Shown here: positions 29,599 through 55,039 of the stretch, piece after piece
Numbering within the stretch: the first letter of the stretch is position 1
Layout: each line of letters starts with the position of its first letter
From: Microbacterium sp.
GTDB taxonomy: Bacteria > Actinomycetota > Actinomycetes > Actinomycetales > Microbacteriaceae
Length of the DNA: 64,000 bases
Reading direction: 5' to 3'
Assembly (NCBI RefSeq): GCF_047606385.1
Contig: NZ_JASGEL010000091.1
Coordinates: 1,785 to 65,784 of the forward strand
Made by a program: the position numbers and the translations under genes
Notes under the pieces: generated by a model
Database searches by the model: none
What the model saw: only the letters and a program-made list of their open reading frames with translations
Told to the model about the DNA's origin: nothing

Positions 29599-29609
29599 TT
29601 GCATGCTAA
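29599..29609. promoter_or_regulatory. Island motif TTGCATGCTAA upstream of GntR gene
   Basis: It lies 18 nt upstream of the GntR start. It is flanked by the 11-mer CACGGTAACAC (29579-29589), which is also present at 49868-49878. Confidence 0.4.
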
Positions 29610-35586: not shown

Positions 35587-35675
35587 TACGCGTCACCAGG
35601 GATGATGAACGACTTCGTATGCAACGCTACACACCAAGGCCGGGACGCGAAACAGTGGAAACACCACTTCTCGTC

Positions 35676-36917: not shown

Positions 36918-36957
36918 GGGGAATGCTCACGGTGGATCGGTGGTCGACGGACGCGGA

Positions 36958-36999
36958 GAGGCCGGGACCGGCGCGTCCACACGCTCCGGCCCCGGCCTC
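36958..36999 (-). terminator. Strong GC-rich stem-loop between the ABC binding-protein gene and the MFS gene
   Basis: GAGGCCGGGaCCGG...CCGGcCCCGGCCTC forms a 14-bp stem with one mismatch. The 14-nt loop has a nested GCGT/ACGC stem. It starts 7 nt after the SBP stop and has no U-tract, which is common in high-GC actinobacteria. Confidence 0.45.
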
Positions 37000-39464: not shown

Positions 39465-40285
39465 CGGCCCTCCTCGTCCTCGAGCACCAGGGTCCGGGCC
39501 GTCGCGAGCGACGACGCCGCCAGCAGGCGTCGGGTGTATTCGTGCTGCGGGGCGCGCAGGACGGTGGCCGTCGACCCCTCCTCGACAACCTGCCCGCGGT
39601 ACATGACGATCACCCGCTGGGCGAGCCGGGCGACGACGCCGAGGTCGTGGGTCACGAACAGCAGCGCCGTCCCCCGCCGGTGGGTGAGGTCGAACATCAT
39701 CCGCAGCACCTGGTACTCGATGGTCACGTCCAGCGCCGTGGTCGGCTCGTCGGCGATGAGCAGGCGGGGCGACTTGACCATCGCCATCGCGATCATCGCG
39801 CGCTGGCGCATGCCGCCCGACAGCTCGTGCGGGATCGCGCGGGCGACCCGTTCCGGGTCGCGGATGCCGACCTCGTGGAGGATGTCGAGCACGTCGCGCT
39901 GGCTCACCGAGGTCCCGCCCTCGCGAATCTGCCGGCTGATCGGCATCAGCGGGTTCAGCGCGGTCAACGGCTCCTGGTAGACGATGGAGAGGTCGGTCCG
40001 CAGCACCCGGCGGCGCTTCTGCGCCGACATGCGGACCATGCTCACGCCGTCCCAGCGGATGTCGCCCCCGCTCACGCGCAGCCCCGGGTCGAGCAGGCCC
40101 AGGATGGAGAAGCAGGTCAGGCTCTTGCCCGAGCCCGACTCGCCGACGATGGCGACGCGGTCTCCGGCGTCCATGCTGAACGACACGTTCCGCACGATCG
40201 GCGTGTCCGGCGCATCGACGGTCGAGACGCAGAGGTCGTCCACGACCAGCAACGGTGATGTGGAATCGGTCGTCATCTGCGCCAC
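39461..40285 (-). CDS. ABC transporter ATP-binding protein (DppD/OppD-like)
   Basis: Walker A GESGSGKS, signature LSGGMRQR, Walker B LLIADEPTTALD. Confidence 0.9.
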   Translation of the reverse strand: MAQMTTDSTSPLLVVDDLCVSTVDAPDTPIVRNVSFSMDAGDRVAIVGESGSGKSLTCFSILGLLDPGLRVSGGDIRWDGVSMVRMSAQKRRRVLRTDLSIVYQEPLTALNPLMPISRQIREGGTSVSQRDVLDILHEVGIRDPERVARAIPHELSGGMRQRAMIAMAMVKSPRLLIADEPTTALDVTIEYQVLRMMFDLTHRRGTALLFVTHDLGVVARLAQRVIVMYRGQVVEEGSTATVLRAPQHEYTRRLLAASSLATARTLVLEDEEGR

Positions 40286-40286
40286 C

Positions 40287-41165
40287 TCACAGCGTCGTCT
40301 TCAGTCGAGGGTCGAGCACCGCCCGCAGCCAGTCGCCGACGAACAGCACGCAGACGACGGTGAACGTGATGCACAGGCCGGGGAAGGTGCTCAGCCACCA
40401 CGCGGTCGCCAGGTAGTCGCGTCCGTCAGACAGCATCAGGCCCCAGGAGATGTCCGGCGGCTGGATGCCGACACCGAGGAAGCTCAGCGACGACTCCGTC
40501 ACGATCAGGGTCGCCACGCTCAGCGTCGAGAGCACGACGAAGGTCGGCACGACGTTGGGCAGGATGTGCCGGACCATGATGTACACGTGGCTCGACCCGA
40601 ACGTCCGGGCCGCCTTGATGAACAGGCGCTCGCGGATCTCGAGCACCTCGTTCCTGATCTGCCGCGCATAGATCACCCAACTGGTCAGGCCGAGCACGAT
40701 GATGAGGGTGAGCAGTCCGGGACTCAGGATCGCGAGCACGGCGAGGATCAGCAGGATCGCCGGGATCGAGAGGAGCGCGTCGACGATCCGCATGAGGATC
40801 GCGTCGACGGCTCCGCCGAAGTAGCCCGCGACGATCCCGACCACCAGGCCGATGGCTCCCGACACGACGACGCCGAGCGCGCCCACGACGATCGAGACCT
40901 GCGAGCCGACCATGAGACGAGAGAGGATGTCGCGCCCGAGCTCGTCCGTCCCGAGCAGGTGCCAGCTCGGGCTGGTCGTGAACGGCGGCAGCAGCGCCTG
41001 CACGGGGTCGACGGCCGTCGGGTCGTACGGCGCGATCACCCGGGCGAGCGCCGCGGTCGCGCAGACGATCAACAGGACGACGATGCTCACGCGTGCCGGC
41101 CATGTCATGGACGCGAGCAGCGTGCCCTTGCGCACCACAGGCGCCGAGATGTCCTGTGTGCTCAT
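40287..41165 (-). CDS. ABC transporter permease (DppC-like)
   Basis: 292 aa with 6 TM helices and a BPD_transp_1 EAA-type loop. Confidence 0.9.
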   Translation of the reverse strand: MSTQDISAPVVRKGTLLASMTWPARVSIVVLLIVCATAALARVIAPYDPTAVDPVQALLPPFTTSPSWHLLGTDELGRDILSRLMVGSQVSIVVGALGVVVSGAIGLVVGIVAGYFGGAVDAILMRIVDALLSIPAILLILAVLAILSPGLLTLIIVLGLTSWVIYARQIRNEVLEIRERLFIKAARTFGSSHVYIMVRHILPNVVPTFVVLSTLSVATLIVTESSLSFLGVGIQPPDISWGLMLSDGRDYLATAWWLSTFPGLCITFTVVCVLFVGDWLRAVLDPRLKTTL

Positions 41166-41178
41166 GACCGCGCCTCGC

Positions 41179-42099
41179 TCATCCCTTGACCCCGATCCGG
41201 CGGTCGGCGAGCCGGAACACGACGTCGCCGACGATGTTGACGAGGATGACCATCACCGCGATGACGAAGACACTCGCCTGCACCACCGGCAGGTCCCGGT
41301 TCGACACGGAGTTGACCAGGAGCAGGCCCATGCCCGGCCAGGCGAAGACGGTCTCGGTGACGATGACCCCGCCGAGCAGGCTCGTGAACAGCAGCAGGAT
41401 GATGCTGACGACCGGGACGAAGGCGTTGCGCAGTGCGTGCCCGTACAGGATGACGGCCTCGGGCAGTCCCTTCCCGCGTGCCGTGCGGATGTAGTCCTTG
41501 TTCAGCTCTTCGATGACGCTGGAACGGACGAGCATCATGATCTCCGCGGCCAGGGCGATCGCGATCGACACCGAGGGCAGGATCAGGCTCTGCCAGCTGC
41601 CCGACCCGGAGACGGGGACCAGCCGCAGGGTGACCGCGAACAGGAGGATGAGCATGATCCCCAGCCAGAACGTCGGCATCGCCTTGCCGAAGACCGCGAC
41701 CGAGGAGAGGACCGTGTCGATCTTCTTGCCGCGGTTGACCGCGAGATACACGCCCGAGGGCACGGACAGGACGATCGCGACGACGATTCCCCACACCGCG
41801 AGCGTGAGCGTGACCGGCAGGCGATCGAGGACGAGTCCCAGCGCCGGCTGGTTGTAGCGGTACGAGACACCGAAATCGCCCTGGATCGCGTGCCAGATGT
41901 AGTCGAGGTACTGCACGTACAGCGGCCGGTCCAGGCCGAGGGAGTGCCGCAGGGCCTCGACCTGCTCGGGCGTCGCATGATCGCCCAGCAGGCTCGCGAC
42001 CGGGTCGCCGGCGACGTAAACCAGCAGGAAGACGAGCGTCACGATGATGAACAGCACCGGGACGGCCTCGAGGACCCGCCGGATCACGTATCTCAGCAT
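41179..42099 (-). CDS. ABC transporter permease (DppB-like)
   Basis: 306 aa with the N-terminus MLRYVIRRVLEAVPVLF typical of DppB/OppB. Confidence 0.9.
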   Translation of the reverse strand: MLRYVIRRVLEAVPVLFIIVTLVFLLVYVAGDPVASLLGDHATPEQVEALRHSLGLDRPLYVQYLDYIWHAIQGDFGVSYRYNQPALGLVLDRLPVTLTLAVWGIVVAIVLSVPSGVYLAVNRGKKIDTVLSSVAVFGKAMPTFWLGIMLILLFAVTLRLVPVSGSGSWQSLILPSVSIAIALAAEIMMLVRSSVIEELNKDYIRTARGKGLPEAVILYGHALRNAFVPVVSIILLLFTSLLGGVIVTETVFAWPGMGLLLVNSVSNRDLPVVQASVFVIAVMVILVNIVGDVVFRLADRRIGVKG

Positions 42100-42139: not shown

Positions 42140-42159
42140 TTGCATGCGAACTTGTCCGC
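42140..42159. promoter_or_regulatory. Conserved 20-nt operator-like module TTGCATGCGAACTTGTCCGC
   Basis: 18/20 identical to 49892-49911. It lies 41 nt upstream of the dppB-like start. On the coding (minus) strand it is followed after 5 nt by the -10-like TACGCT. It abuts the AT palindrome AAAAATTTTT (42160-42169). Confidence 0.45.
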
Positions 42160-42200: not shown

Positions 42201-43316
42201 TCAGCCGAATCGAGCGGGGGCGAGCGCTGTGTCGTCCAGCATCTGATGGCGCCCGAGCATGCGCGCCACGAGGATCTCCGCCGCCGGCAGCGCGTGCATG
42301 AAGCCGTGATGACCGAGTCCGGTGGCCACGTACAGCCCGTCCGTGCCGGGGACGGCGCCGACGATGCCGATGTCGTCCGGGGATGCCGCGCGGTGACCCC
42401 ATTCCGACACGAACACCTGGTCCGCGCGCAGCCCGGGCAGCCGGTGGGTCAACAGGCCGACGGTCCGCTCGGGCTCGGACGCGTCGAAGAACACCGCATC
42501 CTCGCGGTCGGCTCCGCCGATGATCAGCCCCCGCCGGCTCGACACGAAGTACCCGCGCGTGCCCATGTCGAAGACGAGCGGGAGGCGGACGGGCAGGCCG
42601 TGCTGCGGAGCGGTCAGGAAGATCTGCCCCCGCTGGTTCCGGATCGGCGGCACCCACCCGGCCGGCGACAGGGCCGGGATGCTGCCCATGCCGGCGGCGA
42701 CCACGACGGCGTCCGCTGCGATGCCGCCCTCGGCGGCCGTGACTCCCCGCGCGCGTTCGTGGCGGACGTCGACGGCGACGTCGCGACCCTCCACGATGTC
42801 GACGCCATGGCGCTCGCACAGGTCGAGGAGCGACTGCAGGACGGCGGCGGGCGATGCCGTGCCGTCGTGGGCGGTGTACCAGCCGCCGCGGACCCCGTCC
42901 ATGCGCATGCCCGGCACGACCGACTCCAGATCGGCACCCGTCAGCCGCTCGATGGAGCCGCCACCGCCGCGCACGACCTCGGCGATCGACGCCCGCAGCT
43001 CGTCGTGCGCCGGCTCGGTGCTCAGGTAGAGATAGCCGTTCGCCTGGAAGTCGCTTCGCACGTCGTCGCGATCCCGCCACTCGGCCATGATCTGCAGCAT
43101 CCGCAGCGTGAGGGCGACGTTCACCGGCTGCGCGAACTGCGAGCGGATCCCGCCGCCGCCCAGCAGCGATACACCGCCGCCCGGCTGATACCGATCGACG
43201 ACGCAGACCCGCTCGACGCCGGACTCGCGCAGCTGCACCGCCGTGGCCAGACCCATGACGCCGCCGCCGACGATCACGACGTCGTAGCCGCCTCGCGTGT
43301 CCGCGCGCTCAGTCAT
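42201..43316 (-). CDS. FAD-dependent oxidoreductase (DAO family, sarcosine-oxidase-beta-like)
   Basis: 371 aa with dinucleotide fold DVVIVGGGVMGLATAVQL. It overlaps the hyuB stop by 8 nt. Confidence 0.85.
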   Translation of the reverse strand: MTERADTRGGYDVVIVGGGVMGLATAVQLRESGVERVCVVDRYQPGGGVSLLGGGGIRSQFAQPVNVALTLRMLQIMAEWRDRDDVRSDFQANGYLYLSTEPAHDELRASIAEVVRGGGGSIERLTGADLESVVPGMRMDGVRGGWYTAHDGTASPAAVLQSLLDLCERHGVDIVEGRDVAVDVRHERARGVTAAEGGIAADAVVVAAGMGSIPALSPAGWVPPIRNQRGQIFLTAPQHGLPVRLPLVFDMGTRGYFVSSRRGLIIGGADREDAVFFDASEPERTVGLLTHRLPGLRADQVFVSEWGHRAASPDDIGIVGAVPGTDGLYVATGLGHHGFMHALPAAEILVARMLGRHQMLDDTALAPARFG

Positions 43317-45300
43317 GGCTCATCCCGGAGAACGCGTGCTCCACCATCTGCACCGTGATGACGGTCTCGCCGGTGGCGGTCAGCACCGTGTTCAGCCGCT
43401 CCAGCACCCGCTGGTTGACGGTCTCGCGGACGACGTGCGGGTACGCCCGCAGCTCGGTGACGAGCCGGCGTTCCGCACCGGCGCCCCACCGCGCGTCGTG
43501 CGCCTCCCGCCCGGCGCCGTAGCTGAACCCCGGCTCTCCGTCGGCCGAGCCCGGTGTCGCGCGGCGGCCGCGCTCGGCGGCGGTCGCGTCGTCGTCCACG
43601 ACGCCGGCGTCGTCGACGACGACGCCGTACTGCTCCCGGGCCTGCCTCGCGTCGAGCAGGCCCGCGTCGACGTCGGCCGCGACCAGGTGCGCAGGCCGGT
43701 CCTGCGGACGCCCGATGGCGCCGCCCGTCGGCGTGCGGAAGCTGATCGTGTCGCCGTAGCCGAGCGGCACCAGGTCCACCCGCCCGATTGCCTGTTCCCG
43801 CTCGGTGCCCGCGTTGAGGACGACGTCGCCGCGAGCGCCCGGGGCGCCGCCCGCCACTCCCCACGGCTGGAAGTGGAAGCGCTCGAGACCACGGGTCGCG
43901 ACCTCCACGCCGTCCTGCAGCGAACGCATCCGGAACTCGACGCCGACGCCGCCGCGATGCTCGCCTGGCGCGGAGGAGCCCGGAAGCAGGCCGTACTCCT
44001 CGACGAGGATGGGCATCTCCGCCTCGAGCACCTCGTTCGGGACGTTCGCCAGGTGGCCCCCGCCGCCGAACGTGGATCCGTCGACGCCGTCCAGGTGGGG
44101 ACGCGCCCCGGAGCCGCCGAGGAACGGCTGCGCCACCGCCACCTTCTGCGTGCCGGTGTGCTCGTCCATCGCGGCCACCAGCACGATCGCGGCGGAGCCG
44201 GGCCCCGCGGTGGGGAACAGGTCGGGCATGGCCTGGACGAGACAGCCGAGGATGCAGTCGTGGACGCGCATCGCGGTCGCGTAGCGCGCGCCGCACGCCG
44301 CCTCGGGCCCGGGGTGCAGGAGCGTGCCCTCGGGCGCCCGGAAGTGGATCGACCGCACCATTCCCGAGTTGTAGGGGATCGTCGGCTCCATCGTGCGCAG
44401 CCAGTTCCGGATCGGGACCGTGACCTGGTAGTGCACGGGGTGGCCGTAGGTCGGCAGGTTCAGCGCGGCGCGCACCTCGACGTCCGTGCCCTCGAAGTCC
44501 AGGTAGAGGTCGGAGCCGCGGGACTCGAGCGTGCACTCGATGCGGACCGGACGCGCGCCCGGGGCGTCGCGCTCCATGTAGTCGACGAAGCGATAGACGC
44601 CGTCGGGGATCCGCGAGAGCAGGTCCCTCGCGCGGTGCTCCGCGAGGTCCATCACGTCGCCGATCCCCTGCCGCACCGCCTCGGCGCCGTAGCGATCGAC
44701 GACCTCCAGGATCCGCTGCTCGCCGCGGTTGAGACCGGCGATCTGGGCCTGGATGTCGCCCCAGAACGGCTCGGGGATGCGGGAGTTGAGCTTGATGATG
44801 TCCCTGACCGCCGTGTTGAGCACGCCGCCTTCGTACAGCCGCACGGGCGGGATCCGCAGGCCCTCGTGGTAGATGTCGCGGCTGGACATCGCGATGCTGC
44901 CCGGCACGACACCGCCGACGTCTGACGAGTGGATGAAGGACATCGCGTAGCCCACGACCTCGTCCTCGACGAAGATCGCCTTCCACAGGAAGACGTCGGG
45001 GAGGTGGGTGGCGAGCCCCCCGGTCGAGAACGGGTCGTTGGCGATGCCGACGTCGCCCGGCCGGTAGGGCGCGAGCGCCTCGATCGCCTTCATCGTCGGC
45101 AGTCCCACCATCGAGTTGTCGGCGCGGTCCGTGGCGGTGGCGAAGACCTCGCCGTCGGGCGCGACCAGTGCGCACCCGAAGTCCGCGGTCTCCTTGATGT
45201 AGACCGTGAACGCCGTCTGCAGGACGACCGCGGTCATCTCTTCGGCGATCGACTTGAACCGGTTCTTCAGGATCTCGGTCTGGACGGCCTTGGTGGTCAC
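43309..45300 (-). CDS. hyuB: Hydantoinase B/oxoprolinase-family protein
   Basis: 663 aa with a typical HyuB N-terminus (EILKNRFKSIAEEMTAVVLQTAFTVYIKETADFGCAL). Confidence 0.9.
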   Translation of the reverse strand: MTTKAVQTEILKNRFKSIAEEMTAVVLQTAFTVYIKETADFGCALVAPDGEVFATATDRADNSMVGLPTMKAIEALAPYRPGDVGIANDPFSTGGLATHLPDVFLWKAIFVEDEVVGYAMSFIHSSDVGGVVPGSIAMSSRDIYHEGLRIPPVRLYEGGVLNTAVRDIIKLNSRIPEPFWGDIQAQIAGLNRGEQRILEVVDRYGAEAVRQGIGDVMDLAEHRARDLLSRIPDGVYRFVDYMERDAPGARPVRIECTLESRGSDLYLDFEGTDVEVRAALNLPTYGHPVHYQVTVPIRNWLRTMEPTIPYNSGMVRSIHFRAPEGTLLHPGPEAACGARYATAMRVHDCILGCLVQAMPDLFPTAGPGSAAIVLVAAMDEHTGTQKVAVAQPFLGGSGARPHLDGVDGSTFGGGGHLANVPNEVLEAEMPILVEEYGLLPGSSAPGEHRGGVGVEFRMRSLQDGVEVATRGLERFHFQPWGVAGGAPGARGDVVLNAGTEREQAIGRVDLVPLGYGDTISFRTPTGGAIGRPQDRPAHLVAADVDAGLLDARQAREQYGVVVDDAGVVDDDATAAERGRRATPGSADGEPGFSYGAGREAHDARWGAGAERRLVTELRAYPHVVRETVNQRVLERLNTVLTATGETVITVQMVEHAFSGMSHD

Positions 45301-47342
45301 GCGTCATCCCTCGCTTTCGCGACAATGTTCAACTCGGAGTCGATCACGACCGAGAAGGTCGGCGGCACGAAGATCGTCGTGTCGTCGGATTCGATGACCG
45401 CCGGCCCGCAGAACGCGTCCTGCGGGGCGAGCAGCGATCGCTCGTAGATCGCGGCGACGACGATCTCGCCGTGATAGGCGACCGGACGCCGGGTCGGCTC
45501 GGCGCTGCGCTGCCCGTCGGCGTCCACGCGGCGGGAGACGACCGGCACGGCGTTCGGCGCCACGAGCGTCACCTGGGCGGCGACGATCTCCACCGCCGCG
45601 TCTTCGTCGGCGATGCCGTATGCCCTGCGGTAGTCGCGGTGGAAGGCCTCGACCACCTCCGACACCCGGGTGGTGCCGCCGCTCTCCAGCCGCGGCAGAT
45701 CCACGTCCACCGTGAACGTCTGGCCGACGTAGCGCACCTCGGCTTTGCGGAGATAGTGGGCGTCCGCGTTCGGCGAGAGCCGGAACCACTCGCGAGCAGC
45801 CGCCTCGAGCTCGCCGAAGACCTCCTCGAGGGCGTCGTCGGAGACCGTGCGCGCCTCGACGTTGAGGCTGCGGACGACATCGTGCCGGAAGTCCGCCACC
45901 AACCCGCCCTGCGCGCACAGCGTGCCGGGCCGGTTGGGGATGATCACCTTGTCGAAGCCGATGACCTCGGCCACGAGCATGGCCATCGTCGGGCCCGCCC
46001 CGCCGTAGGCGAACAGGGCGTAGTCGGACGCCGACAGCCCGCGCAGCGCCAGCAGCGGCACGAGCTGGGCGTGCATGTTCGCGATGGCGATGTCGAGGAT
46101 GGCGCTGGACACCGATGGCACGTCGAGATCGAGCTCGTCGCCGATCGTGGAGAGCGCCGACTCCGCCGCGGCCGGCGAGAGCTCGAGCCGGCCGTCGAGG
46201 AAGCGACGAGGATTCACGATGCCGGCGACGAGGAGGGCGTCGGTGACCGTCGCCTGGGTGCCGCCGCGCCGATAGCAGGCGGGACCGGGCGTCGATCCCG
46301 CGCTCGCCGGGCCGACCTGGAGGTTCCCGCCGGGCCCGACGGTCGCGATCGAACCGCCGCCGGCGCCGATCGCGGAGATGTCCACCGTCGGGAGGATGAG
46401 CGGAAGCGCCCCGATGCGGGCCTCCGTCGAGTACGGGATCTCGCCGTCGATGATCGACACGTCCGCGCTGGTGCCGCCGATGTCGAGCGTGACGATGCGC
46501 GACTCGCCGGCGAGCCTCGCGATGTGCGTCGCCGCCGTCACGCCGGCGGCGGGACCGGACAGCAGCATGTGGACGGGGTTGTCCTTCGCCGCCTCCACAC
46601 CCATCAGCCCGCCGTTCGAGCGCGTCGTCAGGATCGGCGCCTGGATGCCCAGTTCCCGCATCCCCTCACGGAGAGCCGTGAAATACGTCCGCATCCGATC
46701 GCCGACGTACGCGTTCATCACCGTGATCAGGCCGCGTTCGTACTCGCGCTGCACGGGCCAGACGCTGCTGGAGACGCTGACGAACAGGTCCGGATACGTG
46801 CTCTCGATGATCTCGCGGACCGCGTCCTCGTGCCGCGGGTCGCGGTAGGAGTGCATCAGGCACACGGCGATCGCCTGGACGCCTGCGGCATGCAGCGACG
46901 CGACCTGCCGGAGCACCTCTTCCTCGTCGACCGGCCGCAGCTCGTCCCCGGAGGCGAGCAGGCGCGCGCTGATCTCCCGCACCAGACGGCGCGGCACGAG
47001 GAGGGGCTGCTTGACCGAGAACAGGTCCGACGGGTTCTCCAGTTTGAGCCGCGCCATCTCCAGCATGTCCGCGAAGCCGCTGCTGACGATCAGGCCCGTC
47101 GCCGCGCCGCCGCGCTCGATCAGCGTGTTGAGCGCCAGGGTCGTGCCGTGGGCGAAGTAGACGACCTCGGCGGCGTCCACGCCGTGGTCGCGCAGGAGGG
47201 TCCGCAGACCGTCGAGAACGCCCTCGGCGGGATCGTCGGGGGTGGTGAAGACCTTGAAGGCGATCACCTCGCCGGAGGCATCGTCGATCGCTGCGAGATC
47301 GGTGAACGTCCCACCGATGTCGACGCCGACACGTATGGGCAT
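45297..47342 (-). CDS. hyuA: Hydantoinase A/oxoprolinase-family protein (ATP-binding subunit)
   Basis: 681 aa with an ASKHA-type N-terminus (VGVDIGGTFTDL). 4-nt overlap with hyuB. Confidence 0.9.
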   Translation of the reverse strand: MPIRVGVDIGGTFTDLAAIDDASGEVIAFKVFTTPDDPAEGVLDGLRTLLRDHGVDAAEVVYFAHGTTLALNTLIERGGAATGLIVSSGFADMLEMARLKLENPSDLFSVKQPLLVPRRLVREISARLLASGDELRPVDEEEVLRQVASLHAAGVQAIAVCLMHSYRDPRHEDAVREIIESTYPDLFVSVSSSVWPVQREYERGLITVMNAYVGDRMRTYFTALREGMRELGIQAPILTTRSNGGLMGVEAAKDNPVHMLLSGPAAGVTAATHIARLAGESRIVTLDIGGTSADVSIIDGEIPYSTEARIGALPLILPTVDISAIGAGGGSIATVGPGGNLQVGPASAGSTPGPACYRRGGTQATVTDALLVAGIVNPRRFLDGRLELSPAAAESALSTIGDELDLDVPSVSSAILDIAIANMHAQLVPLLALRGLSASDYALFAYGGAGPTMAMLVAEVIGFDKVIIPNRPGTLCAQGGLVADFRHDVVRSLNVEARTVSDDALEEVFGELEAAAREWFRLSPNADAHYLRKAEVRYVGQTFTVDVDLPRLESGGTTRVSEVVEAFHRDYRRAYGIADEDAAVEIVAAQVTLVAPNAVPVVSRRVDADGQRSAEPTRRPVAYHGEIVVAAIYERSLLAPQDAFCGPAVIESDDTTIFVPPTFSVVIDSELNIVAKARDDA

Positions 47343-47378
47343 GCGAGGCCTTTCTGATAGCTGGAGGAGTGGTTCTCG

Positions 47379-47966
47379 TCAGACCGCCCAGGCGGCTGCC
47401 GCCTCGGGCTGGCAGCGAGGATCGCCGCCTTCGCCGCCGCGGTAGTCCGCGACCTGGCCGTCGATGACGTAGCCGGTGTCGGTGGTCATGCTCCGACACC
47501 ACTCCGGCGAGACGCACGAGCGGGCTCCGTACGATTCGACGGCGGCCATGATGACGGGCAGGCCGGCTCGCACCTCGGCCGCGCTCCGCTCGGGGTCGGC
47601 GAGCCGGACGCCGGCGGTCTCGGCCATCGCGGTGATGTCCTCGAGCTGCCTCGCCGCCCAGCCGTGGGGATCGGCGTTCAGCGCGTCGTCGAAGTTCCCG
47701 TACTCCGGCTCCATCCCCGGGAACCGGGGGTGGAAGTGCGCCGACCTGCCGTTGCCCTTCGGCAGTCCGACGGTGTCGAAGAGGTCCGCGCGCCAGAAGA
47801 TCCCGTCGATGAGGATCGGCTGGGCGACCGAGCGGCTCCCGCGCATCACGATCGGCGTGACGGTGCGCAGGTCGATGCGCGCCCCGTGCTCTTCATGACC
47901 GGTGCCGACCTCGTACCAGTGCCGGACCATGACGACGACCTCGGAGAAGTGGAACAGCGTTTGCAT
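47379..47966 (-). CDS. Hypothetical protein (195 aa), no family recognised
   Basis: I prefer ATG 47966 (MQTLFHF..., RBS GGAGG 9 nt upstream) over 47981. It ends 36 nt before hyuA. Real-protein composition, with His/Cys-containing segments (HWYEVGTGHEEH, HFHPRFPG, C-x5-C). Confidence 0.5.
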   Translation of the reverse strand: MQTLFHFSEVVVMVRHWYEVGTGHEEHGARIDLRTVTPIVMRGSRSVAQPILIDGIFWRADLFDTVGLPKGNGRSAHFHPRFPGMEPEYGNFDDALNADPHGWAARQLEDITAMAETAGVRLADPERSAAEVRAGLPVIMAAVESYGARSCVSPEWCRSMTTDTGYVIDGQVADYRGGEGGDPRCQPEAAAAWAV

Positions 47967-48041
47967 TTCTCGAACCTCCATTTCGGGCGCGTGCGTGCCC
48001 TGTGTTCTTCCTTGGGCGACGGCTGGCCTGATGGCGGGCCG

Positions 48042-49817
48042 TCAATAGACGGGTCGGACGACCTCGCCGGACTCGGGGACGTCCCATGCCGAGACGGGCG
48101 GGAGCTGGTCGATGACGTGAGGCACCCGGATGCTCAGGAATGTCGGCCCCTGCCGGTCGCGCGCCGCCCGGAGCTCGATCTCCAGCTCGTCGAGGGTGCG
48201 GACGTCCGCTCCCGGCACGCCGCATGCCTCCGCCACCTTCACGGCGTCGATCGCGCCGGGGGTCACCCCGAAATAGCGCTGGCCCATGTACAGGTGCTGG
48301 AGCATCTTTATCCAACCGTAGCTCGCGTTGTCGAACTCGATGAACAGCACCGGCAGCTGATACCGGGCCGCGGTCTCCAGCTCGCCGCAGGCCATCGCGA
48401 AACTGCCGTCGGCGGTGAAGCAGACCACGCGGCCTCCGGTGCCGATGGCGGCCCCCATGGCGGCCGGGATCGCATATCCCATCGCGCCGTGTCCTCGCGG
48501 CAGCACCACCGTGCGGCCCGGCTTGTCGAGCTCCCAGAACGAGGCGAGGTACGGCGTCGGCGTTCCCGGGTCGCCCACGGCGACGACCTCGGAGCCGAAC
48601 ACCGCCTGCACGCGCGTGACGACGTCGGCCGGCGAGAGCTTGCCGGCCTCGGTCGAGGTCGGGACGCCGGCCTCCTTCCAGGCGCGCCTCGCGGCGGCCA
48701 CCTCCGCGACGACCGCGTCGCGGTCCACGGCGAGGTCTACGCCCTCGAGCGCGTCGAGGAGCTGGCGGAGCACGGTGCGGCTGTCTCCGACGACCGCCAG
48801 GGAGCCCGGATAGTTCCTCCCGGCGCGGGTGGCGTCGATGTCGATGTGGATCACGGTCACGTCCGGTTCCCGGCGCGGCGCCCGCCAGCTGTCGGTGTTG
48901 GTCGCGTTCGCGCGCGTTCCGACGAAGATCACGGTGTCCGCGGATGCGACGTAGTCGAACGCGTAGCGGCGGGCGCCGTTGTTGCCGACCACGCCGAGCG
49001 AGTAGGGATCGTCGTCGGCGATCACGCCTTTGCCGTGGATGCTCGTGGCCACCGGGGCGCCGACACGCTCGGCGAGGGCCCGCAGCTCGGCGGCGGCGGA
49101 CGAGGTGTGCACGCCGGAGCCGGCGACGATCGCGGGTCGCTTCGCGCGGGCGATCGCCGCGACCGCGGCCTGCACGACATCGGTGGCCGCGGCGGGCCGC
49201 TCGGCGGGAAGGTCTTCGACCGAGGGAATGGCGGCGTCGGTCAGCTCGTCGCGGGCGATGGTGTGGTCGAGCACGTCCTCGGGGAAGATCAGCACCACCG
49301 GGGCGGGGCGACCCGTCGTCGCGGCGCGCAGCGCGTCGGCGACCGCCGCGGGGATGTCCGCCGGCCGTTCCACCACCCGCGAGAACTTGGTCACGGCGCT
49401 GAAGAGCTTCACCTGGTCGATCTCGGTGAGAGCCCCGGAGCCGCGGCTGGCCGTATGGATGTCCGAGGTGATGAGCAGGACGGGAATCCCCGCCGCGTAC
49501 GACTCTCCCATCGAGCCGACCGCATAGCTGCACCCGCCACCGCTGGAGACCTCCGCGACGCCCACGCGACCCGTCGTGCGCGAATAGGCGTCGGCCATCG
49601 CGAGCGCGTGACGCTCGTCTCGGGTGAGCACGTGGACGATGTCGTCGCGGTGGTCGTTCAACGCGTCGTAGAACACGACCCCGGTGTCGCCGGGAAGGCC
49701 GAAGATCTCCTTGACCCCCGCCGAGACCAGCGTCTCCACGAGCAGATCGGCGCCTCGCACCTGTCCGTCGCTCTCGGTCGTGCGCCGCTCTGCCGGTGCC
49801 GTCACTGTCACATCCAC
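48042..49817 (-). CDS. Thiamine-pyrophosphate-dependent enzyme (acetolactate-synthase-like)
   Basis: 591 aa with an N-terminal Pyr domain (GVKEIFGLPGD) and a C-terminal PP domain with TADGSFAM...N. GTG start with RBS GAGGAG. Confidence 0.9.
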   Translation of the reverse strand: MDVTVTAPAERRTTESDGQVRGADLLVETLVSAGVKEIFGLPGDTGVVFYDALNDHRDDIVHVLTRDERHALAMADAYSRTTGRVGVAEVSSGGGCSYAVGSMGESYAAGIPVLLITSDIHTASRGSGALTEIDQVKLFSAVTKFSRVVERPADIPAAVADALRAATTGRPAPVVLIFPEDVLDHTIARDELTDAAIPSVEDLPAERPAAATDVVQAAVAAIARAKRPAIVAGSGVHTSSAAAELRALAERVGAPVATSIHGKGVIADDDPYSLGVVGNNGARRYAFDYVASADTVIFVGTRANATNTDSWRAPRREPDVTVIHIDIDATRAGRNYPGSLAVVGDSRTVLRQLLDALEGVDLAVDRDAVVAEVAAARRAWKEAGVPTSTEAGKLSPADVVTRVQAVFGSEVVAVGDPGTPTPYLASFWELDKPGRTVVLPRGHGAMGYAIPAAMGAAIGTGGRVVCFTADGSFAMACGELETAARYQLPVLFIEFDNASYGWIKMLQHLYMGQRYFGVTPGAIDAVKVAEACGVPGADVRTLDELEIELRAARDRQGPTFLSIRVPHVIDQLPPVSAWDVPESGEVVRPVY

Positions 49818-49891
49818 GTCTCAGCGTCTCCTCGTCGGCCGGTGGTGCGTCCGATCGACGCGCTGTCCACGGTAACACATTGTAGACCACT

Positions 49892-49911
49892 TTGCATGCG
49901 AAGTTGTGCGC
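49892..49911. promoter_or_regulatory. Conserved 20-nt operator-like module TTGCATGCGAAGTTGTGCGC
   Basis: 18/20 identical to 42140-42159. On the minus strand it is followed after 7 nt by the -10-like TACAAT (49884-49879) and then by GTGTTACCGTG (49878-49868). It lies 75 nt upstream of the TPP-enzyme start. Confidence 0.45.
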
Positions 49912-49946
49912 GGATCTGTGCCGCCGAGCATGGCGCGGCCCTGCGC

Positions 49947-50747
49947 TCAGACCGGCCCGTCGCCCGGCACGGTCCGGGCCGGCGGAGCGCCCCAGTACGC
50001 ACGCACGAGATTGGCGTAGAGCGCGACGTAGTCCTCTTTCGAGGGCACGTCCACGAGCGTCTCCGGGCAGAGATAGCCGCTGTAGGAGTCCGCGCGCAGG
50101 AGTGCCATGAGCTCGTCGTAGGGGAAGTCGCTCGCGAGATCGTGCAGGTCGATGTGACGCAGATAGGGCCTGATCCGCTGATAGGTGGAGGCGATGCTGC
50201 CTCCCACGAGGTCGCGGTGGTCGCTGTTGTAGTGCAGTCCCAGATTCGGCCGATCGGCCAGGCGCAGGATCTCGAGGGCGAAGTGCCAATTGTTGATCTC
50301 GCCGTGCATCTCCAGCAGCAGCTCGATGCCCACCGAGGCCGCCTCGTCGGCGAGACGCTGGAGGCTCTGCGCGATGCCGGCCAGCGTGATGTCGCGGTCG
50401 ACGCCCGGATGCAGGTCGTTCCCGCAGACCCGCACCATGGGCGATGCGATGTCGTGGGCCAGCTCGATGTGCCGGATGGCGTTGTCCTCGGCCTTCGTGC
50501 GCTGCGCCGGGTCGGGACTGTCGAACCGGGCGCCCGAGCGCACGCACGCCGCCTCGAGGTAGGCGTCCTGGATCTTGTCACGGATCGCACGGCGCTCCTG
50601 TGCGCTGCGCTCGATCTCCACGCCGTGGGCGTTTCCGTACTCGCATCGGAAGTCGAGGCCGGCGAACCCCCGCCGGCGCGCGATGTCGATCATCTCGTCG
50701 AGAGTCCAGCTCTTGCCCAGGCCGTAGGACAGCAGTGAGAGCCTCAT
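49947..50747 (-). CDS. Sugar-phosphate isomerase/epimerase (xylose-isomerase-like TIM barrel)
   Basis: Start at ATG 50747 (RBS GAAGGAG), 266 aa, AP_endonuc_2-type pattern. Confidence 0.85.
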   Translation of the reverse strand: MRLSLLSYGLGKSWTLDEMIDIARRRGFAGLDFRCEYGNAHGVEIERSAQERRAIRDKIQDAYLEAACVRSGARFDSPDPAQRTKAEDNAIRHIELAHDIASPMVRVCGNDLHPGVDRDITLAGIAQSLQRLADEAASVGIELLLEMHGEINNWHFALEILRLADRPNLGLHYNSDHRDLVGGSIASTYQRIRPYLRHIDLHDLASDFPYDELMALLRADSYSGYLCPETLVDVPSKEDYVALYANLVRAYWGAPPARTVPGDGPV

Positions 50748-50826
50748 GATTGCTCCTTCATTCGATGGGTCGAGGCATGCGCTGGCGGACGCGCTCGGCG
50801 CTGCCGGAGGTCGCATGCTCATTACT

Positions 50827-50836
50827 TGCATGCAAA
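50827..50836. promoter_or_regulatory. Perfect palindrome TTGCATGCAA (island motif)
   Basis: It lies 80 nt upstream of the TIM-barrel gene start. Two more GCATGC hexamers occur within 60 bp (50814-50819 and 50775-50780). Confidence 0.4.
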
Positions 50837-50903: not shown

Positions 50904-53900
50904 TCAGCGCGCCGCGGGATGGGGAGAGTACGCCGCCGCGCTCGCCATGCCCCCGAACACGCGCACCGCGACATCGAGCGTCGTCCAGCCCGGCGGCGTC
51001 GCACGGGAGATCTCCCGCAGCGTCGTGCGGGCGCGTGACACCCGGGATCGGTGGGACTCCTCCCATCGCGCGATGAGCGCGTCGATGTCGTCGGTGTGGT
51101 CCGCTCCGAGCAGCACGTCGACGCAGACCGCTTTGACGGCCCGGTAGATGTCGCCTCGCAGCAGCAGCCTCGCCTGCGTGTCCCATCGCTCCCGCTGCGG
51201 GAGGGCGGACACGGCGGTGAGGAGATGGTCGACCTGGAGGTGGGCGTTGATCCGGTAGTAGAGGCGCGCGACCCGTTCGCGGTCGACGCCGGTCAGGGCG
51301 GCGACGTCGATCACGTCGAGCAGGCAGAACCGGTGCAGCAGCGTCATCACCTCGCGTGCCTGCGCCACGGTCGCGCCCTGGTCGACGACCTCCCGCATCC
51401 GCTGCTCGACGATCTCCGCGTCCGCACCGCCGAGCAGGTGCGGCACGAGCCGGCTCATCGACCGGATGCCGTCGCGGTACCGCTCGGTCTCCGCCGCCAT
51501 GTCGACCGGTTGCGGTCGCTGCGCGAGAAGCCACCTCGTGGCGCGTTCGAGCAGACGCCGCACCTCGCGCGTGAACGCGTCGGAGACCCGCGTGTTCGCG
51601 GCGAACCGGATGCCTGCGAGCAGGCGCGGGACGTCGAACACGCTGTGCGCCGCGACGTAGGCCCGCACGATGTCAGGCGTCGAGGCCCCGCTGGCCTCGG
51701 CGATGCGGAAGACGAAGGCCACCCCGCCGGTGTCGACGAGCTCGTTGGTGAGCGCGGTCGCGAGGATCTCCCGCCGGAGTGGATGGCGAGCGAGCTCGAC
51801 CGGGAAGCGACGTCGCAGCTCGGACGGGAAGTAGGCCTGCAGCCGGGGCAGGAGCTCGTCGGCATCGAGCACATCGGATGAGAGCAGGTCTGCTTTGAGG
51901 GACAGCTTGACGTGCGCCGCGAGGGCCGCCAGCTCCGGCGAGGTGAGGCCGGCACCCCGCTCGAGGCGCTGCTGGATGTCCTCGTCGTCCGGGAGGGCCT
52001 CGAGCGTCCGATTCAGGATGCCGCGCGCCTCGAGGTCGCCGATGAGGCGGCCGTGGGTGTCCATGAGCTCAGCGGCCTGAGCCCGCGTGGTGCCGAGCAG
52101 CTCGTTCTGCGCGCGGTTCTCCGCCAGCACGAGCTCGACCACGTCGGGCGTCATGTCGGCGAGCAGCCGATCGCGAGCCGGCGCATCGAGGCCTCCTCGC
52201 GCGACCGCCGAGTCCAGCAGGATCTTGATGTTGACCTCGTGATCGGAGCAGTCGACGCCGGCGGAGTTGTCCCACGCGTCGCTGTTGACCCCGTGCCCCG
52301 CCTGGGCGAGCTCGATCCGGGCGCGCGGGGTGATGCCGAGGTTCCCGCCCTCGACGACGACCCGCGCCCGCACCTCGCCGGCGTCGATCCTGAGGTCGTC
52401 GTTGGACTTGTCGTGGACGTCCAGGGACGTCTCGGCCTGCGCCTTCACGAACGTGCCGATGCCGCCGTTCCACAGCAGGTCGACGGGCGCGCGCAGGATC
52501 GCCCTGATCAGCTCGCGCGACGAGAGCGACGACGCCCCGGCCAGTCCGAGCGCCTCGGCCGCCTCGGCGGAGATCGGGATGGACTTCGCCGTCCTCGGCC
52601 AGACGCCGCCTCCCGCGCTGATCGAGGCGCGGTCGTAGTCGGCCCAGCTCGATCGCGGCAGGTGGAACAGGCGGACCCGCTCCGCGTGGGACCGCGCCGG
52701 ATCCGGCGCCGGGTCGAGGAAGATGTGGCGGTGGTCGAACGCGGCGACCAGCCGGATCCGTGAGCTGAGCAGCATGCCGTTGCCGAAGACGTCGCCGCCC
52801 ATGTCACCGATTCCGACGGCAGTGAGCGGATCCGTGTCGGCGTCCATGCCGCGTTCCCGGAAATGTCGCCGCGCGCTCTCCCATGCGCCTTTCGCCGTGA
52901 TCCCGATGGCCTTGTGGTCGTAGCCGACCGACCCGCCGGAGGCGAAGGCGTCGCCGAGCCAGAAGCCCCGCGCCGCGGCCACGTCGTTCGCGACGTCGGA
53001 GAAGCCCGCCGTGCCGCGGTCTGCGGCGACGACCAGGTAGGAGTCGGACCCGTCGCGGCAGACCACGCGGGCAGGCGGGACCACGCTCGCCTGGGCCGAG
53101 TCGAGGTTGTCGGTCACGCCGAGCAGCGCCGAGACGAAGATGCGATAGCAGTCCGCGCCCTCACCGCGTTTGGCGATGAAGACGCCCTTCGCGCCGGCGG
53201 GCACGATGATCGCGTTCTTGACCATCTGGGTGCGCACCAGGCCCAGCACCTCGGTGCGATAGTCGTCGATCCGGTCGGACCATCGCAGGCCGCCGCGCGC
53301 CACCCGTGAGAAGCGCAGATGGGTGCCCTCCACATCGGGGCCGTAGACGAACGTCTCGAAGAGCGGACGCGGTTCGGGCAGCTCCGGGATGCCGCCGGAG
53401 TCGAGCTTGACCGTGATCACCGGCCCCGGCGAGCCGTCGTCGGCGACCCGGAAGAAGTCGGTGCGCACCGTGCTCAGCACGAGCGAGAGGAACGCGCGGA
53501 GGATCCGGTCGTCGTCGATCCCGGGGACGCCTTCGATGTCCGCCCTGATCCGGTCCTCGGTCTCGGCCGCCGCGACGGCGTCGATGCGATCCGGGTCGAG
53601 AAGGCTCCCGAAGAGGCGGACGAGCCGGCGCGTGACGCCGTCGTGGCGCTCCAGCACGCGCACGACCTGGGCGGAGGAGAACGGAAGCCCGGCCTGCTTG
53701 AGGAACCGCGCGTAGACGCGCAGCAGCGCCGCCTCCCGCCAGCGCAGCCCCAGCCTGGGCACGAGGACGTTGAACGGATCAGCCTCCGCGCGGCCCGACC
53801 ACACGGCCCGGAACGCGTCGACGACGACGTCCTCCTGGTCCGCCCGCGGCGCCGCCTCGGTGCGGATGCGGAACTCGTACGACCATGCCGCGGCGCCGGC

Positions 53901-54092: not shown

Positions 54093-54141
54093 GCGTCGGC
54101 TCCCCTCATCGTGCACCGCGAACCCGGTGGGGATCACGCCG

Positions 54142-55002: not shown

Positions 55003-55039
55003 GATTTCCTCCTCCGTCCGCGGCGGTCGCGGCAGCCCG

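What the first reader, a model, noticed from the sequence alone, without database searches (positions are those of the whole stretch)
43309..50747. Hydantoinase A/B is coupled to a DAO flavoprotein and preceded by a TPP enzyme, a TIM-barrel isomerase and an orphan protein
hyuA/hyuB overlap by 4 nt and hyuB/DAO by 8 nt, so the three are tightly coupled. The orphan gene ends 36 nt before hyuA. The TPP-enzyme gene ends 75 nt before my preferred orphan start (47966).

Known HyuA/HyuB-type enzymes (5-oxoprolinase, N-methylhydantoinase, acetone/acetophenone carboxylases, caprolactamase) act in ATP-dependent ring opening or carboxylation, and some need extra small subunits. A TPP enzyme plus an isomerase immediately upstream is not part of any of those described systems. 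That suggests a new substrate or chemistry, for example ring opening followed by amine oxidation and 2-oxoacid processing.
Basis: inference. Interest (0 to 1): 0.6.

Follow-up and report, generated by a model that had tools for sequence, protein, structure and literature searches.

The report
GntR-controlled cyclic-amide breakdown gene island
A strain-specific set of co-regulated genes in a high-GC actinobacterium most likely imports an unknown ring-shaped amide, opens it with ATP and oxidises the product; this is a new combination of known enzyme types, not a new kind of system.

Summary
In detail: all genes, overlaps and gaps are as stated. Two corrections: the TIM-barrel gene starts at ATG 50747, and the "orphan" has relatives in 187 species.

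HyuA/HyuB carry every ATP-site and metal-site motif but score far below NCBI's cut-offs for caprolactamase and acetophenone carboxylase. No orthologue turned up in sampled same-genus genomes.

New here: an 11-nt operator (TTCGCATGCAA, at most 1 mismatch) occurs five times in 21 kb, against 0.35 expected. Each copy lies 17-78 nt upstream of a transcription unit:
- gntR-DAO2-AKR
- ACAD-fold monooxygenase plus flavin reductase
- Dpp-type ABC importer
- TPP-"orphan"-hyuA-hyuB-DAO
- TIM barrel

One Streptomyces genome keeps the same regulator (50% identity), a perfect palindromic operator, the TPP enzyme (57%) and HyuAB (42/45%), with an M20 hydrolase in place of DAO.

HyuAB plus a DAO-type oxidase has precedents: N-methylpyrrolidone genes, and a Ti-plasmid locus I recall as aga. 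The TPP link appeared in no paper in one narrow full-text search.

The 195-aa protein is never next to HyuAB in 80 other loci, so a generic accessory-subunit role is unsupported.

The scan has noted other uncharacterised HyuAB operons on other DNA, one with a TPP enzyme and a DadA-like oxidoreductase. The substrate is unknown. Interest is moderate.

The parts
48042..49817 (-). ALS-like thiamine-diphosphate enzyme, first gene of the hyu operon
   Evidence: Pfam TPP_enzyme_N/M/C. All NCBIfam hits are below cut-off; the best is acolac_lg at 362 bits against 538. Best PDB match is BbmA at 243 bits, then acetolactate synthases. It is 29% identical to E. coli Gcl and keeps Glu68 where Gcl has Val. 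Orthologues of 53-59% identity occur in many actinomycetes. It is 57% identical to the L134 copy.
47379..47966 (-).
   Evidence: RBS GGAGG. The family alignment has invariant His, Glu, Asp and Cys residues. The AF2 model has pLDDT 92.5. No PDB fold match: best Foldseek E 0.44, best VIA Z 4.2. Atlas neighbours partly carry PF24777. HyuAB is a neighbour in 0 of 80 loci. The family was found in 0 of 100 other same-genus genomes.
45297..47342 (-). HyuA, ATP-binding subunit of a hydantoinase/oxoprolinase-type enzyme
   Evidence: Pfam. Motifs DIGGTFTD 8-15, DIGGTS 287-292 and GSTPGP 349-354 match the CapA motifs described in PMC8453981.
43309..45300 (-). HyuB, metal-site subunit; overlaps hyuA by 4 nt
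   Evidence: Pfam Hydantoinase_B, E 6e-137. [quoted passage not shown]
42201..43316 (-). DAO-family FAD oxidoreductase (DAO1); overlaps hyuB by 8 nt
   Evidence: Pfam DAO, 2e-55. ThiO 108 bits and SoxB 78 bits are both below cut-off. Best PDB match is 1y56_B 'sarcosine oxidase' at 83.5 bits.
49947..50747 (-). AP_endonuc_2 (xylose-isomerase-like) TIM-barrel protein, its own transcription unit
   Evidence: Pfam, 3e-19. Start ATG 50747 with AAGGAG. Only 19% identical to E. coli Hyi. Best NCBIfam hit is IolO at 29.5 bits against a cut-off of 300.
50826..50836 (-). Operator copy (TTTGCATGCAA) 78 nt upstream of the TIM start
49892..49902 (-). Operator copy (TTCGCATGCAA, exact) 74 nt upstream of the TPP start
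42140..42150 (-). Operator copy (exact) 40 nt upstream of the first ABC permease gene
37006..42099 (-). Dpp/Opp-type ABC importer: permeases 41179-42099 and 40287-41165, ATPases 39461-40285 and 38553-39464, SBP_bac_5 binding protein 37006-38559
   Evidence: Pfam. Best PDB matches for the binding protein are 5u4o at 156 bits, AccA at 126 and AgaA at 84.
36958..36999 (-). 18-bp hairpin just after the binding-protein stop; probable end of the ABC operon
   Evidence: RNA fold -48.3 kcal/mol, z -3.4, reached by 0 of 200 shuffles
35676..36926 (-). MFS transporter
   Evidence: Pfam MFS_3/MFS_1
35614..35624 (+). Operator copy (1 mismatch) 21-27 nt upstream of the ACAD-fold gene
33836..35592 (-). ACAD-fold protein (34351-35592) and flavin reductase (about 33836-34350): probable two-component flavin monooxygenase
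   Evidence: Pfam Acyl-CoA_dh_2/M/1 and Flavin_Reduct. The function is inferred from the domains only.
29599..29609 (-). Operator copy (TTAGCATGCAA) 17 nt upstream of the gntR start
28907..29581 (-). GntR/FCD-family regulator, probable repressor of the five units
   Evidence: Pfam GntR + FCD. It is 50% identical to the GntR next to TPP in L134.
26656..28814 (-). Second DAO-family oxidoreductase (27639-28814) and an aldo/keto reductase (26656-27600), downstream of gntR
   Evidence: Pfam
50904..58486 (-). Neighbours with no operator match: short NAD-GDH 50904-54137, ProC-like 54142-55002, PutA 55040-58486
   Evidence: Pfam. No operator match lies here. PutA is 76-78% identical at DNA level in same-genus genomes, whereas the hyu block is not matched in any listed row.

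Best explanation
This is an accessory, horizontally acquired catabolic regulon for a small, still unidentified cyclic amide of hydantoin or lactam type, probably derived from an amino acid.

A GntR/FCD repressor binds an 11-12-nt near-palindrome in front of five transcription units. The proposed route is:
1. The Dpp-type ABC system imports the compound.
2. HyuA/HyuB open the ring at the cost of ATP.
3. The translationally coupled DAO flavoprotein oxidises the freed (secondary) amine or amino acid to a carbonyl or 2-oxo acid.
4. The ALS-like TPP enzyme decarboxylates or ligates that oxo acid.
5. The TIM-barrel enzyme and the aldo/keto reductase isomerise or reduce the carbonyl product.

The second DAO and the two-component flavin monooxygenase would handle a side group or a related substrate.

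Shown: gene identities, intact catalytic motifs, coupling, the shared operator, and conservation of the GntR-operator-TPP-HyuAB module in one other genus. Inferred: the order of steps, the repressor role and the substrate class.
For: - Genes and coupling are confirmed. HyuA ATP motifs and the HyuB D-H-D-H tetrad are intact (against PMC8453981).
- The operator TTCGCATGCAA (at most 1 mismatch) occurs 5 times in the window against 0.35 expected; 0 of 100 shuffles reach 5. There are only 8 matches in the whole 3.02-Mb genome. All five lie 17-78 nt upstream of starts.
- Streptomyces locus L134 carries an ABC importer, HyuA (42%), HyuB (45%), M20, TPP (57%) and GntR (50%). A perfect TTCGCATGCGAA lies about 103 nt before its first gene. 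That palindrome occurs at most-1-mismatch only 3 times in 3.3 Mb of other loci.
- A second Streptomyces locus (L214) has a DAO gene (34%) directly upstream of the TPP orthologue (54%).
- In the HyuA tree, the window sequence, P0042 and P0043 sit in a clade (SH-like support 0.94) with L134 and with M20-linked and solA-linked pairs.
- The block is strain-specific. HyuA is at best 38% identical in 24 same-genus genomes. The 195-aa family was found in 0 of 100. The TPP orthologue was found in 0 of 7 same-genus and 0 of 400 same-class genomes at E<=1e-120.
- Precedent for ring opening followed by amine oxidation: nmpAB plus nmpC (PMC6987047, passage).
Against: - No substrate can be named. The closest HyuA relatives (45-51%) sit in quite different contexts, such as penicillin amidase/LigB, M20 or solA.
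- Among 80 loci from the HyuA profile scan, only 3 have a TPP-family gene and 8 a DAO-family gene within 10 kb.
- TPP orthologues also occur without HyuAB (L214, L215).
- The operator-regulator link rests on sequence only.
- If the substrate is a hydantoin, the regulon lacks a recognisable carbamoylase.
Confidence: 0.6

Rival explanations
1. This is a hydantoin or N-methylhydantoin (creatinine-type) route feeding a glycerate-like pathway. HyuAB would be an N-methylhydantoinase or hydantoinase. DAO would be a sarcosine or glycine oxidase yielding glyoxylate. TPP plus the TIM barrel would play the roles of glyoxylate carboligase and hydroxypyruvate isomerase.
For: - The best solved relative of HyuA and HyuB is named N-methylhydantoinase.
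- The best hits for DAO are glycine oxidase ThiO, SoxB and 'sarcosine oxidase' 1y56_B.
- The HyuA clade includes a Paracoccus pair next to solA, aminomethyltransferase and MTHFR.
- L134 and the Variovorax locus pair HyuAB with M20 hydrolases, as in hydantoin utilisation.
- An adjacent TPP enzyme plus AP_endonuc_2 TIM barrel mirrors E. coli gcl-hyi.
Against: - TPP is only 29% identical to Gcl and keeps the catalytic Glu that Gcl lacks.
- The TIM barrel is only 19% identical to Hyi.
- No carbamoylase or creatinine deaminase domain was seen among the regulon genes scanned.
- A Dpp-type peptide/opine importer is an odd choice for hydantoin.
- All DAO scores lie far below the curated cut-offs.
Confidence: 0.15
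2. This is opine-like catabolism of agropinic-acid type. An N-substituted pyroglutamate would be imported by the SBP_bac_5 system and its lactam opened by HyuAB. DAO would then cleave the N-alkyl glutamate to glutamate plus a carbonyl compound. GDH and PutA next door would take the glutamate, and TIM, TPP and AKR the carbonyl part.
For: - Ti plasmid NC_002377.1 has the same architecture: FAD oxidoreductase, HyuA and HyuB, divergent from an SBP_bac_5-type ABC importer. I identify this as the aga region from recall of Lyi et al. 1999; that paper was not readable.
- The binding protein's PDB relatives include the opine binders AccA (126 bits) and AgaA (84 bits).
- GDH, ProC and PutA are adjacent.
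Against: - Identity to the Ti-plasmid proteins is only 26% (oxidase), 37% (HyuA), 31% (HyuB) and 25% (binding protein).
- The Ti HyuA lies in a distant clade.
- GDH, ProC and PutA have no operator match, and PutA is a genus-level gene.
- This reading gives the TPP enzyme no specific role.
Confidence: 0.1
3. The 195-aa protein is a dedicated third component of this HyuAB enzyme. It would be either a gamma-like or metal-handling accessory subunit, or a new amidase replacing the M20 hydrolase of the L134 version.
For: - It sits 36 nt before hyuA inside the operon and has a strong RBS.
- It was found in 0 of 100 other same-genus genomes, so it came with the island.
- The family has invariant His, Glu, Asp and Cys residues.
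- L134 lacks the family anywhere in its genome and has M20 instead.
- In 4 MAG loci a homologue directly follows a nitrile-hydratase alpha gene, another amide-related metalloenzyme.
Against: - HyuAB lies within 10 kb in 0 of 80 other loci.
- Neighbours are variable and often on the other strand: the top families are SDR in 7, NHase alpha in 4 and GNAT in 4 of 54.
- There is no Pfam hit to any family, including the acetone carboxylase gamma family, at E<=10.
- There is no structural relative in the PDB.
- The NHase-linked loci are related MAGs, so they are not independent.
Confidence: 0.15
4. This is a chance juxtaposition. The TPP, TIM and 195-aa genes are unrelated passengers beside an ordinary HyuAB-DAO pair.
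For: HyuAB pairs occur in very many contexts. The TPP orthologue and the 195-aa family usually occur without HyuAB.
Against: The five units share an operator. TPP, the 195-aa gene and hyuA lie in one operon with gaps of 75 and 36 nt. The TPP-HyuAB-GntR-operator set recurs in L134.
Confidence: 0.04

Closest known systems
ATP-dependent lactamases and hydantoinases of the HyuA/HyuB family (caprolactamase CapAB, PDB 6YRA; 'N-methylhydantoinase', PDB 7hk5/9h03)
   Same: Same two-subunit domain set, the same ATP-binding motifs and Asp-His-Asp-His metal site, and adjacent overlapping genes.
   Different: Scores lie far below the equivalog cut-offs. The best solved relative reaches only 392/204 bits. 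The enzyme forms its own small clade with two metagenomic proteins. The substrate is unknown.
N-methylpyrrolidone degradation genes nmpABCF
   Same: A HyuAB-type ring opener followed by an amino-acid oxidase (PMC6987047, passage read).
   Different: No sequence comparison was possible. The window has no succinate-semialdehyde dehydrogenase in the regulon. It adds a TPP enzyme, a TIM barrel, a Dpp-type importer and a DUF7700-like gene.
Octopine-type Ti plasmid locus NC_002377.1 82856-87913, recalled as agaE/F/G (agropinic and mannopinic acid catabolism), with its divergent ABC importer
   Same: A DAO-type FAD oxidoreductase, HyuA and HyuB beside an SBP_bac_5-type ABC importer.
   Different: Identity is only 25-37%, and the HyuA lies in a different clade. 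The gene order differs, and the Ti locus has no TPP, TIM barrel or GntR/FCD regulator. The aga gene names come from recall, not from the record.
Streptomyces sp. NPDC001508 locus L134 (uncharacterised)
   Same: Orthologous GntR (50%), the same palindromic operator, TPP (57%) and HyuAB (42/45%), with an ABC importer.
   Different: It has an M20 hydrolase instead of DAO, an SBP_bac_8 importer instead of Dpp-type, no DUF7700-like gene in the genome, and no TIM barrel within 10 kb.
E. coli gcl-hyi-glxR glycerate pathway
   Same: An adjacent TPP enzyme of the ALS superfamily and an AP_endonuc_2 TIM barrel.
   Different: Identity is 29% and 19%. The TPP enzyme keeps the catalytic Glu that Gcl lacks.

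Membership tests
HyuA/HyuB ATP-dependent hydantoinase/oxoprolinase superfamily | Hydant_A_N, Hydantoinase_A and Hydant_A_C domains in one subunit and Hydantoinase_B in the other | tested here: met
   Pfam E-values 1e-51, 5e-82, 4e-17 and 6e-137
HyuA/HyuB ATP-dependent hydantoinase/oxoprolinase superfamily | ASKHA ATP-site motifs (phosphate 1 DxGGTxxD, phosphate 2 DxGGT, adenosine GxxPGP) and the Asp-His-Asp-His metal tetrad | tested here: met
   DIGGTFTD 8-15, DIGGTS 287-292 and GSTPGP 349-354; D40, H99, D102 and H124. The motifs are as described in PMC8453981.
HyuA/HyuB ATP-dependent hydantoinase/oxoprolinase superfamily | ATP-dependent ring opening or carboxylation activity | not testable with these tools
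   Needs an enzyme assay
Caprolactamase CapA/CapB (NCBIfam equivalogs NF050156/NF050157) | Score above the curated cut-off of 1000 bits | tested here: not met
   449 and 218 bits
Acetophenone/acetone carboxylase | Equivalog scores for the Apc subunits, and a small gamma-type subunit | tested here: not met
   ApcC 260, ApcA 214 and ApcD 128 bits against cut-offs of 1250-1500. The 195-aa protein hits no Pfam family at E<=10 other than RESP18 at 0.18.
Creatinine/N-methylhydantoin pathway | N-methylhydantoinase plus N-carbamoylsarcosine amidase plus sarcosine oxidase | tested here: inconclusive
   The best PDB hit is named N-methylhydantoinase but reaches only 392 bits. DAO resembles SoxB and ThiO only below cut-off. 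No amidase domain appears among the genes scanned, and the 195-aa protein has unknown function.
Agropinic acid (aga) type opine catabolism | Orthology to the Ti-plasmid oxidase, HyuA, HyuB and binding protein | tested here: not met
   26, 37, 31 and 25% identity, and a separate HyuA clade. Only the architecture is shared.
Glyoxylate carboligase / hydroxypyruvate isomerase pair | Gcl-type TPP enzyme (Val in place of the catalytic Glu) and a Hyi orthologue | tested here: not met
   29% identity, with Glu68 aligned to the Gcl Val; 19% identity to Hyi
GntR/FCD repressor regulon | GntR HTH plus FCD domain, with a near-palindromic operator before its own gene and its target operons | tested here: met
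   Domains. Five sites against 0.35 expected, all 17-78 nt upstream of starts. The operator is conserved with the orthologous regulator in L134. Binding itself was not tested.
Pfam DUF7700 (PF24777) | Match to the family model | tested here: inconclusive
   The window protein has no hit. A family relative, P0363, hits at 27.8 bits against a cut-off of 25. Atlas neighbour clusters carry the family in 11-44% of members.

The most novel reading that the evidence does not exclude
The DUF7700-like 195-aa protein is a new kind of small metalloprotein that works with HyuAB. It would be either an amidase that finishes the ring-opened product, replacing the M20 hydrolase of the Streptomyces version, or a metal-delivery factor for the HyuB site. 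Together with the conserved GntR-TPP-HyuAB module, this would define an undescribed pathway in which a cyclic amide is converted through a 2-oxo acid by a dedicated TPP enzyme.
Probability: 0.15. Interest if true: 0.65.

Novelty: new variant of a known kind. Interest (0 to 1): 0.4.

Why it matters
HyuA/HyuB enzymes open very stable lactam and hydantoin rings under mild conditions, which makes them of interest for nylon-monomer and chiral amino-acid chemistry. Most family members have no known substrate.

This locus is a well-defined test case. It has one regulator, five operator sites, one importer with a soluble binding protein, and a short enzyme list. The substrate could therefore be found by screening ligands of the GntR protein or the binding protein.

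The locus also ties an abundant, unnamed actinobacterial TPP-enzyme subfamily to cyclic-amide and amine catabolism. It does the same for a conserved protein family that has a confident predicted fold but no solved relative.

Tried and rejected
- **Nearest metagenomic relatives.** The single metagenome scan, with HyuA as query, found only two weak loci.
- **Single-protein pattern scans of genome contigs.** These were unproductive: the 195-aa protein gave 1 locus at 45% and HyuA gave 1 locus at 35%.
- **Common operon partner for the 195-aa family.** Clustering of neighbours found no family shared across lineages. In a Pfam census of 54 same-strand neighbours the top counts were SDR 7, NHase alpha 4 and GNAT 4. 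That census covered 54 of the 113 nearest neighbours found; the 59 opposite-strand ones were left out.
- **Fused forms of the 195-aa family.** Of 10 longer relatives, most showed no domain or only truncated fragments of unrelated domains, which are likely gene-call artefacts. One carried HD plus DUF7700.
- **Fold search for the 195-aa model.** No convincing match. This does not show that the fold is new.
- **Gcl/Hyi reading.** Rejected as membership.
- **Operator-like site on contig C29.** It lies before an arylamine N-acetyltransferase, 4.6 kb from the second HyuAB cluster. I treat it as chance, because about 14-16 one-mismatch matches are expected genome-wide (my extrapolation from the shuffles, plus a composition estimate made without a tool) and only 3 lie outside the island.
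- **Promoter and terminator consensus scan.** Nothing useful.
- **Phylogeny against characterised enzymes.** This could not be done. No stored sequences of CapAB, OplAB, OPLAH or N-methylhydantoinase were available, and PDB sequences may not be typed in. I used HMM and phmmer scores instead and built a tree of fetched sequences only. That tree used 48 sequences: 28 of the 128 loci analysed and 18 of the 120 listed HyuA hits, chosen by hand for identity and context.
- **Literature searches with no hit.**
  - 'agropinic acid' + hydantoinase
  - N-methylhydantoin amidohydrolase + amino acid oxidase + lactam
  - 9H03 + hydantoinase
  - 'agropinic acid' + AgaA
  - hyuA + hyuB + thiamine
  - DUF7700
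  - The BbmA/CsmA search returned only unrelated papers.
- **Papers and supplements.** Lyi et al. 1999 and PMC207864 are not held. Supplementary files were not consulted.
- **Organism name.** It was not determined.

Full report
**Observation**

The window is about 71% G+C. A third-position G+C test and ORF lists give one long run of minus-strand genes:
- PutA 55040-58486
- ProC-like 54142-55002
- a 1077-aa NAD-GDH 50904-54137
- an AP_endonuc_2 TIM barrel 49947-50843
- an ALS-like TPP enzyme 48042-49817
- a 195-aa gene 47379-47966
- hyuA 45297-47342
- hyuB 43309-45300
- DAO 42201-43316
- a Dpp-type ABC importer 37006-42099
- an MFS gene 35676-36926
- an ACAD-fold gene with a flavin reductase

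The stated overlaps (4 and 8 nt) and gaps (36 and 75 nt) follow from these coordinates. ATG 47966 has GGAGG 8 nt upstream. The TIM barrel most likely starts at ATG 50747, which has AAGGAG upstream; this is the finding's end coordinate.

**HyuA and HyuB**

HyuA carries the two phosphate motifs and the adenosine motif. [quoted passage not shown] Both sets are as described for caprolactamase in PMC8453981 (passages read).

The pair fails NCBI's equivalog cut-offs for caprolactamase (449 and 218 bits against 1000) and for acetophenone carboxylase subunits. Among solved structures the best match is a fused 1288-aa 'N-methylhydantoinase' (7hk5/9h03) at 392 and 204 bits. Caprolactamase follows at 308 and 177 bits.

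In 5.8 billion proteins there is one 73% relative (P0042) and one 51% relative (P0043). Many others are 43-49% identical, from Thermomicrobiales, Chloroflexota and Rhizobiales.

In a FastTree of 48 hand-picked sequences, the window HyuA groups with P0042 and P0043 (support 1.0). This group sits inside a clade that also holds:
- a Variovorax pair beside an M20 hydrolase
- a Paracoccus pair beside solA
- Chloroflexia pairs split by a penicillin amidase
- Streptomyces L134 as the next outgroup (support 0.94)

The Ti-plasmid HyuA and the genome's own second copy on contig C29 are distant. No characterised reference sequence could be included in the tree.

**A strain-specific block**

- HyuA is at most 38% identical in 24 same-genus genomes and at most 39% in a 400-genome class sample.
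- The TPP orthologue was not found at E<=1e-120 in that class sample. Only three candidates per genome were scored.
- The 195-aa family was found in 0 of 100 other same-genus genomes.
- In a DNA search of 60 same-genus genomes, the 150 listed rows (of 592) matched only PutA, parts of the ABC ATPases, GDH (2 rows) and ProC (1 row). None matched the DAO-to-TIM block.

**The regulon**

I followed a first-stage note on a shared module and searched for TTCGCATGCAA with at most one mismatch. There are five matches in the window against 0.35 expected, and 0 of 100 shuffles reach five. The whole 3.02-Mb genome has eight.

All five lie 17-78 nt upstream of a start codon. The units are:
- gntR (followed by a second DAO gene and an aldo/keto reductase)
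- the ACAD-fold gene
- the first ABC permease
- the TPP gene
- the TIM-barrel gene

A strong hairpin ends the ABC operon. putA-proC-gdh has no match.

**Conservation elsewhere**

Streptomyces sp. NPDC001508 (L134) has this gene order: SBP_bac_8 ABC importer, HyuA (42%), HyuB (45%), M20 hydrolase, TPP (57%), GntR/FCD (50%). A perfect palindrome TTCGCATGCGAA lies about 103 nt before the first gene.

Of 401 genomes of that genus, three have a TPP orthologue:
- L134 itself
- L214, with a DAO gene (34%) directly upstream and an MFS reading frame behind it
- L215, in a methyltransferase/saccharopine-dehydrogenase-like cluster

The TPP subfamily is common in actinomycetes at 53-59% identity and is always generically named.

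Among the 80 loci of the HyuA profile scan, 3 have a TPP-family gene within 10 kb and 8 have a DAO-family gene. The 195-aa family appears in none (tblastn E<=1e-8, at least 40% coverage).

**The 195-aa protein**

It belongs to a conserved family found so far only in Actinomycetota. The family has 187 species in the genome scan and 356 representative clusters, and it has invariant His, Glu, Asp and Cys residues.

The AlphaFold model is confident (pLDDT 92.5). It has no convincing solved relative: best Foldseek E 0.44, best VIA Z 4.2. Atlas neighbours and one relative point to Pfam DUF7700.

In the 80 other loci it is never within 10 kb of HyuAB, and its neighbours vary. In four related MAG loci it directly follows a nitrile-hydratase alpha gene. 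L134's genome lacks the family.

A general accessory-subunit role is therefore unsupported. A role specific to this island remains possible.

**Known parallels**

- The N-methylpyrrolidone genes pair a HyuAB-type ring opener with an amino-acid oxidase (PMC6987047, passage).
- Ti plasmid NC_002377.1 has an FAD oxidoreductase, HyuA and HyuB beside an SBP_bac_5-type importer. I recall this locus as the agropinic/mannopinic acid region of Lyi et al. 1999. I saw that paper only as a reference entry and could not read it. Identities to the window proteins are 25-37%.
- The binding protein's solved relatives include AccA and AgaA.
- The TPP/TIM pair recalls E. coli gcl-hyi, but identities are 29% and 19%, and the TPP enzyme keeps the catalytic Glu.
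- No paper combining hyuA, hyuB and thiamine was found.
- The scan's own notes list several other uncharacterised HyuAB operons. One of them has an ALS-like TPP enzyme and a DadA-like oxidoreductase (I did not check it).

**Verdict**

The locus is a real, co-regulated, horizontally acquired catabolic island built around an uncharacterised HyuAB lineage. The most likely sequence of events is import, ATP-dependent ring opening, flavin-dependent amine oxidation, TPP-dependent oxo-acid processing, then carbonyl isomerisation or reduction.

The substrate is unknown. It is a new variant of a known kind and of moderate interest.

Noticed in passing
window 47379-47966 and loci L002-L081: The 195-aa family is conserved in 187 species, all Actinomycetota. 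It has a confident predicted structure (pLDDT 92.5), no convincing PDB fold match, and invariant His, Glu, Asp and Cys residues. It is a candidate uncharacterised small metalloprotein.
   Followed up: partly
L030 9033-9713, L041 8843-9973, L049 9021-9680, L038 19-345 (and L021 7079-7798): In a group of related MAGs, a Co-type nitrile-hydratase alpha gene (CTLCSC motif) lies just upstream of the 195-aa homologue on the same strand.
   Followed up: partly
G000 contig C29 22803-33616 (locus L218): The genome has a second, distant HyuAB pair (34/28% identity). It sits with a luciferase-like monooxygenase, an Amidohydro_2 protein, a Liv-type ABC importer and its own GntR/FCD regulator.
   Followed up: partly
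window 50904-54137: The Bac_GDH-family NAD-glutamate dehydrogenase is only 1077 aa. It begins with an ACT3 domain and lacks the long N-terminal part of the roughly 1600-aa forms; that full length is from recall.
   Followed up: no
G000 contigs C124 and C90: The genome holds a second PutA (55% identity) and a second ProC (47%). The putA-proC-gdh set beside the island is therefore an extra copy set.
   Followed up: no
L214 9151-12291: In one Streptomyces genome the TPP orthologue's open frame runs on into an MFS transporter domain, giving a 1046-aa ORF. This is either a fusion or two genes in one frame.
   Followed up: no
L130 9989-16285 and L163: In two Chloroflexia MAGs, hyuA and hyuB (45% identity to the window's) are separated by a penicillin-amidase (Ntn hydrolase) gene and preceded by a LigB-type dioxygenase.
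   Followed up: no
L219 (Ruegeria pomeroyi megaplasmid) 8217-10704: A 39%-identical TPP enzyme lies divergent from a GntR regulator and an Asp/Glu racemase. This is another GntR-TPP pairing.
   Followed up: no
window 47985-48000: A short G+C-rich stem-loop lies in the 75-nt gap between the TPP stop and the 195-aa start. Its meaning is unknown.
   Followed up: no
window 29697-33989: A GlxR-like dehydrogenase (31% identity to E. coli GlxR), a DUF1537-type kinase and a GAF-PucR regulator lie just beyond gntR. They have no operator match.
   Followed up: partly
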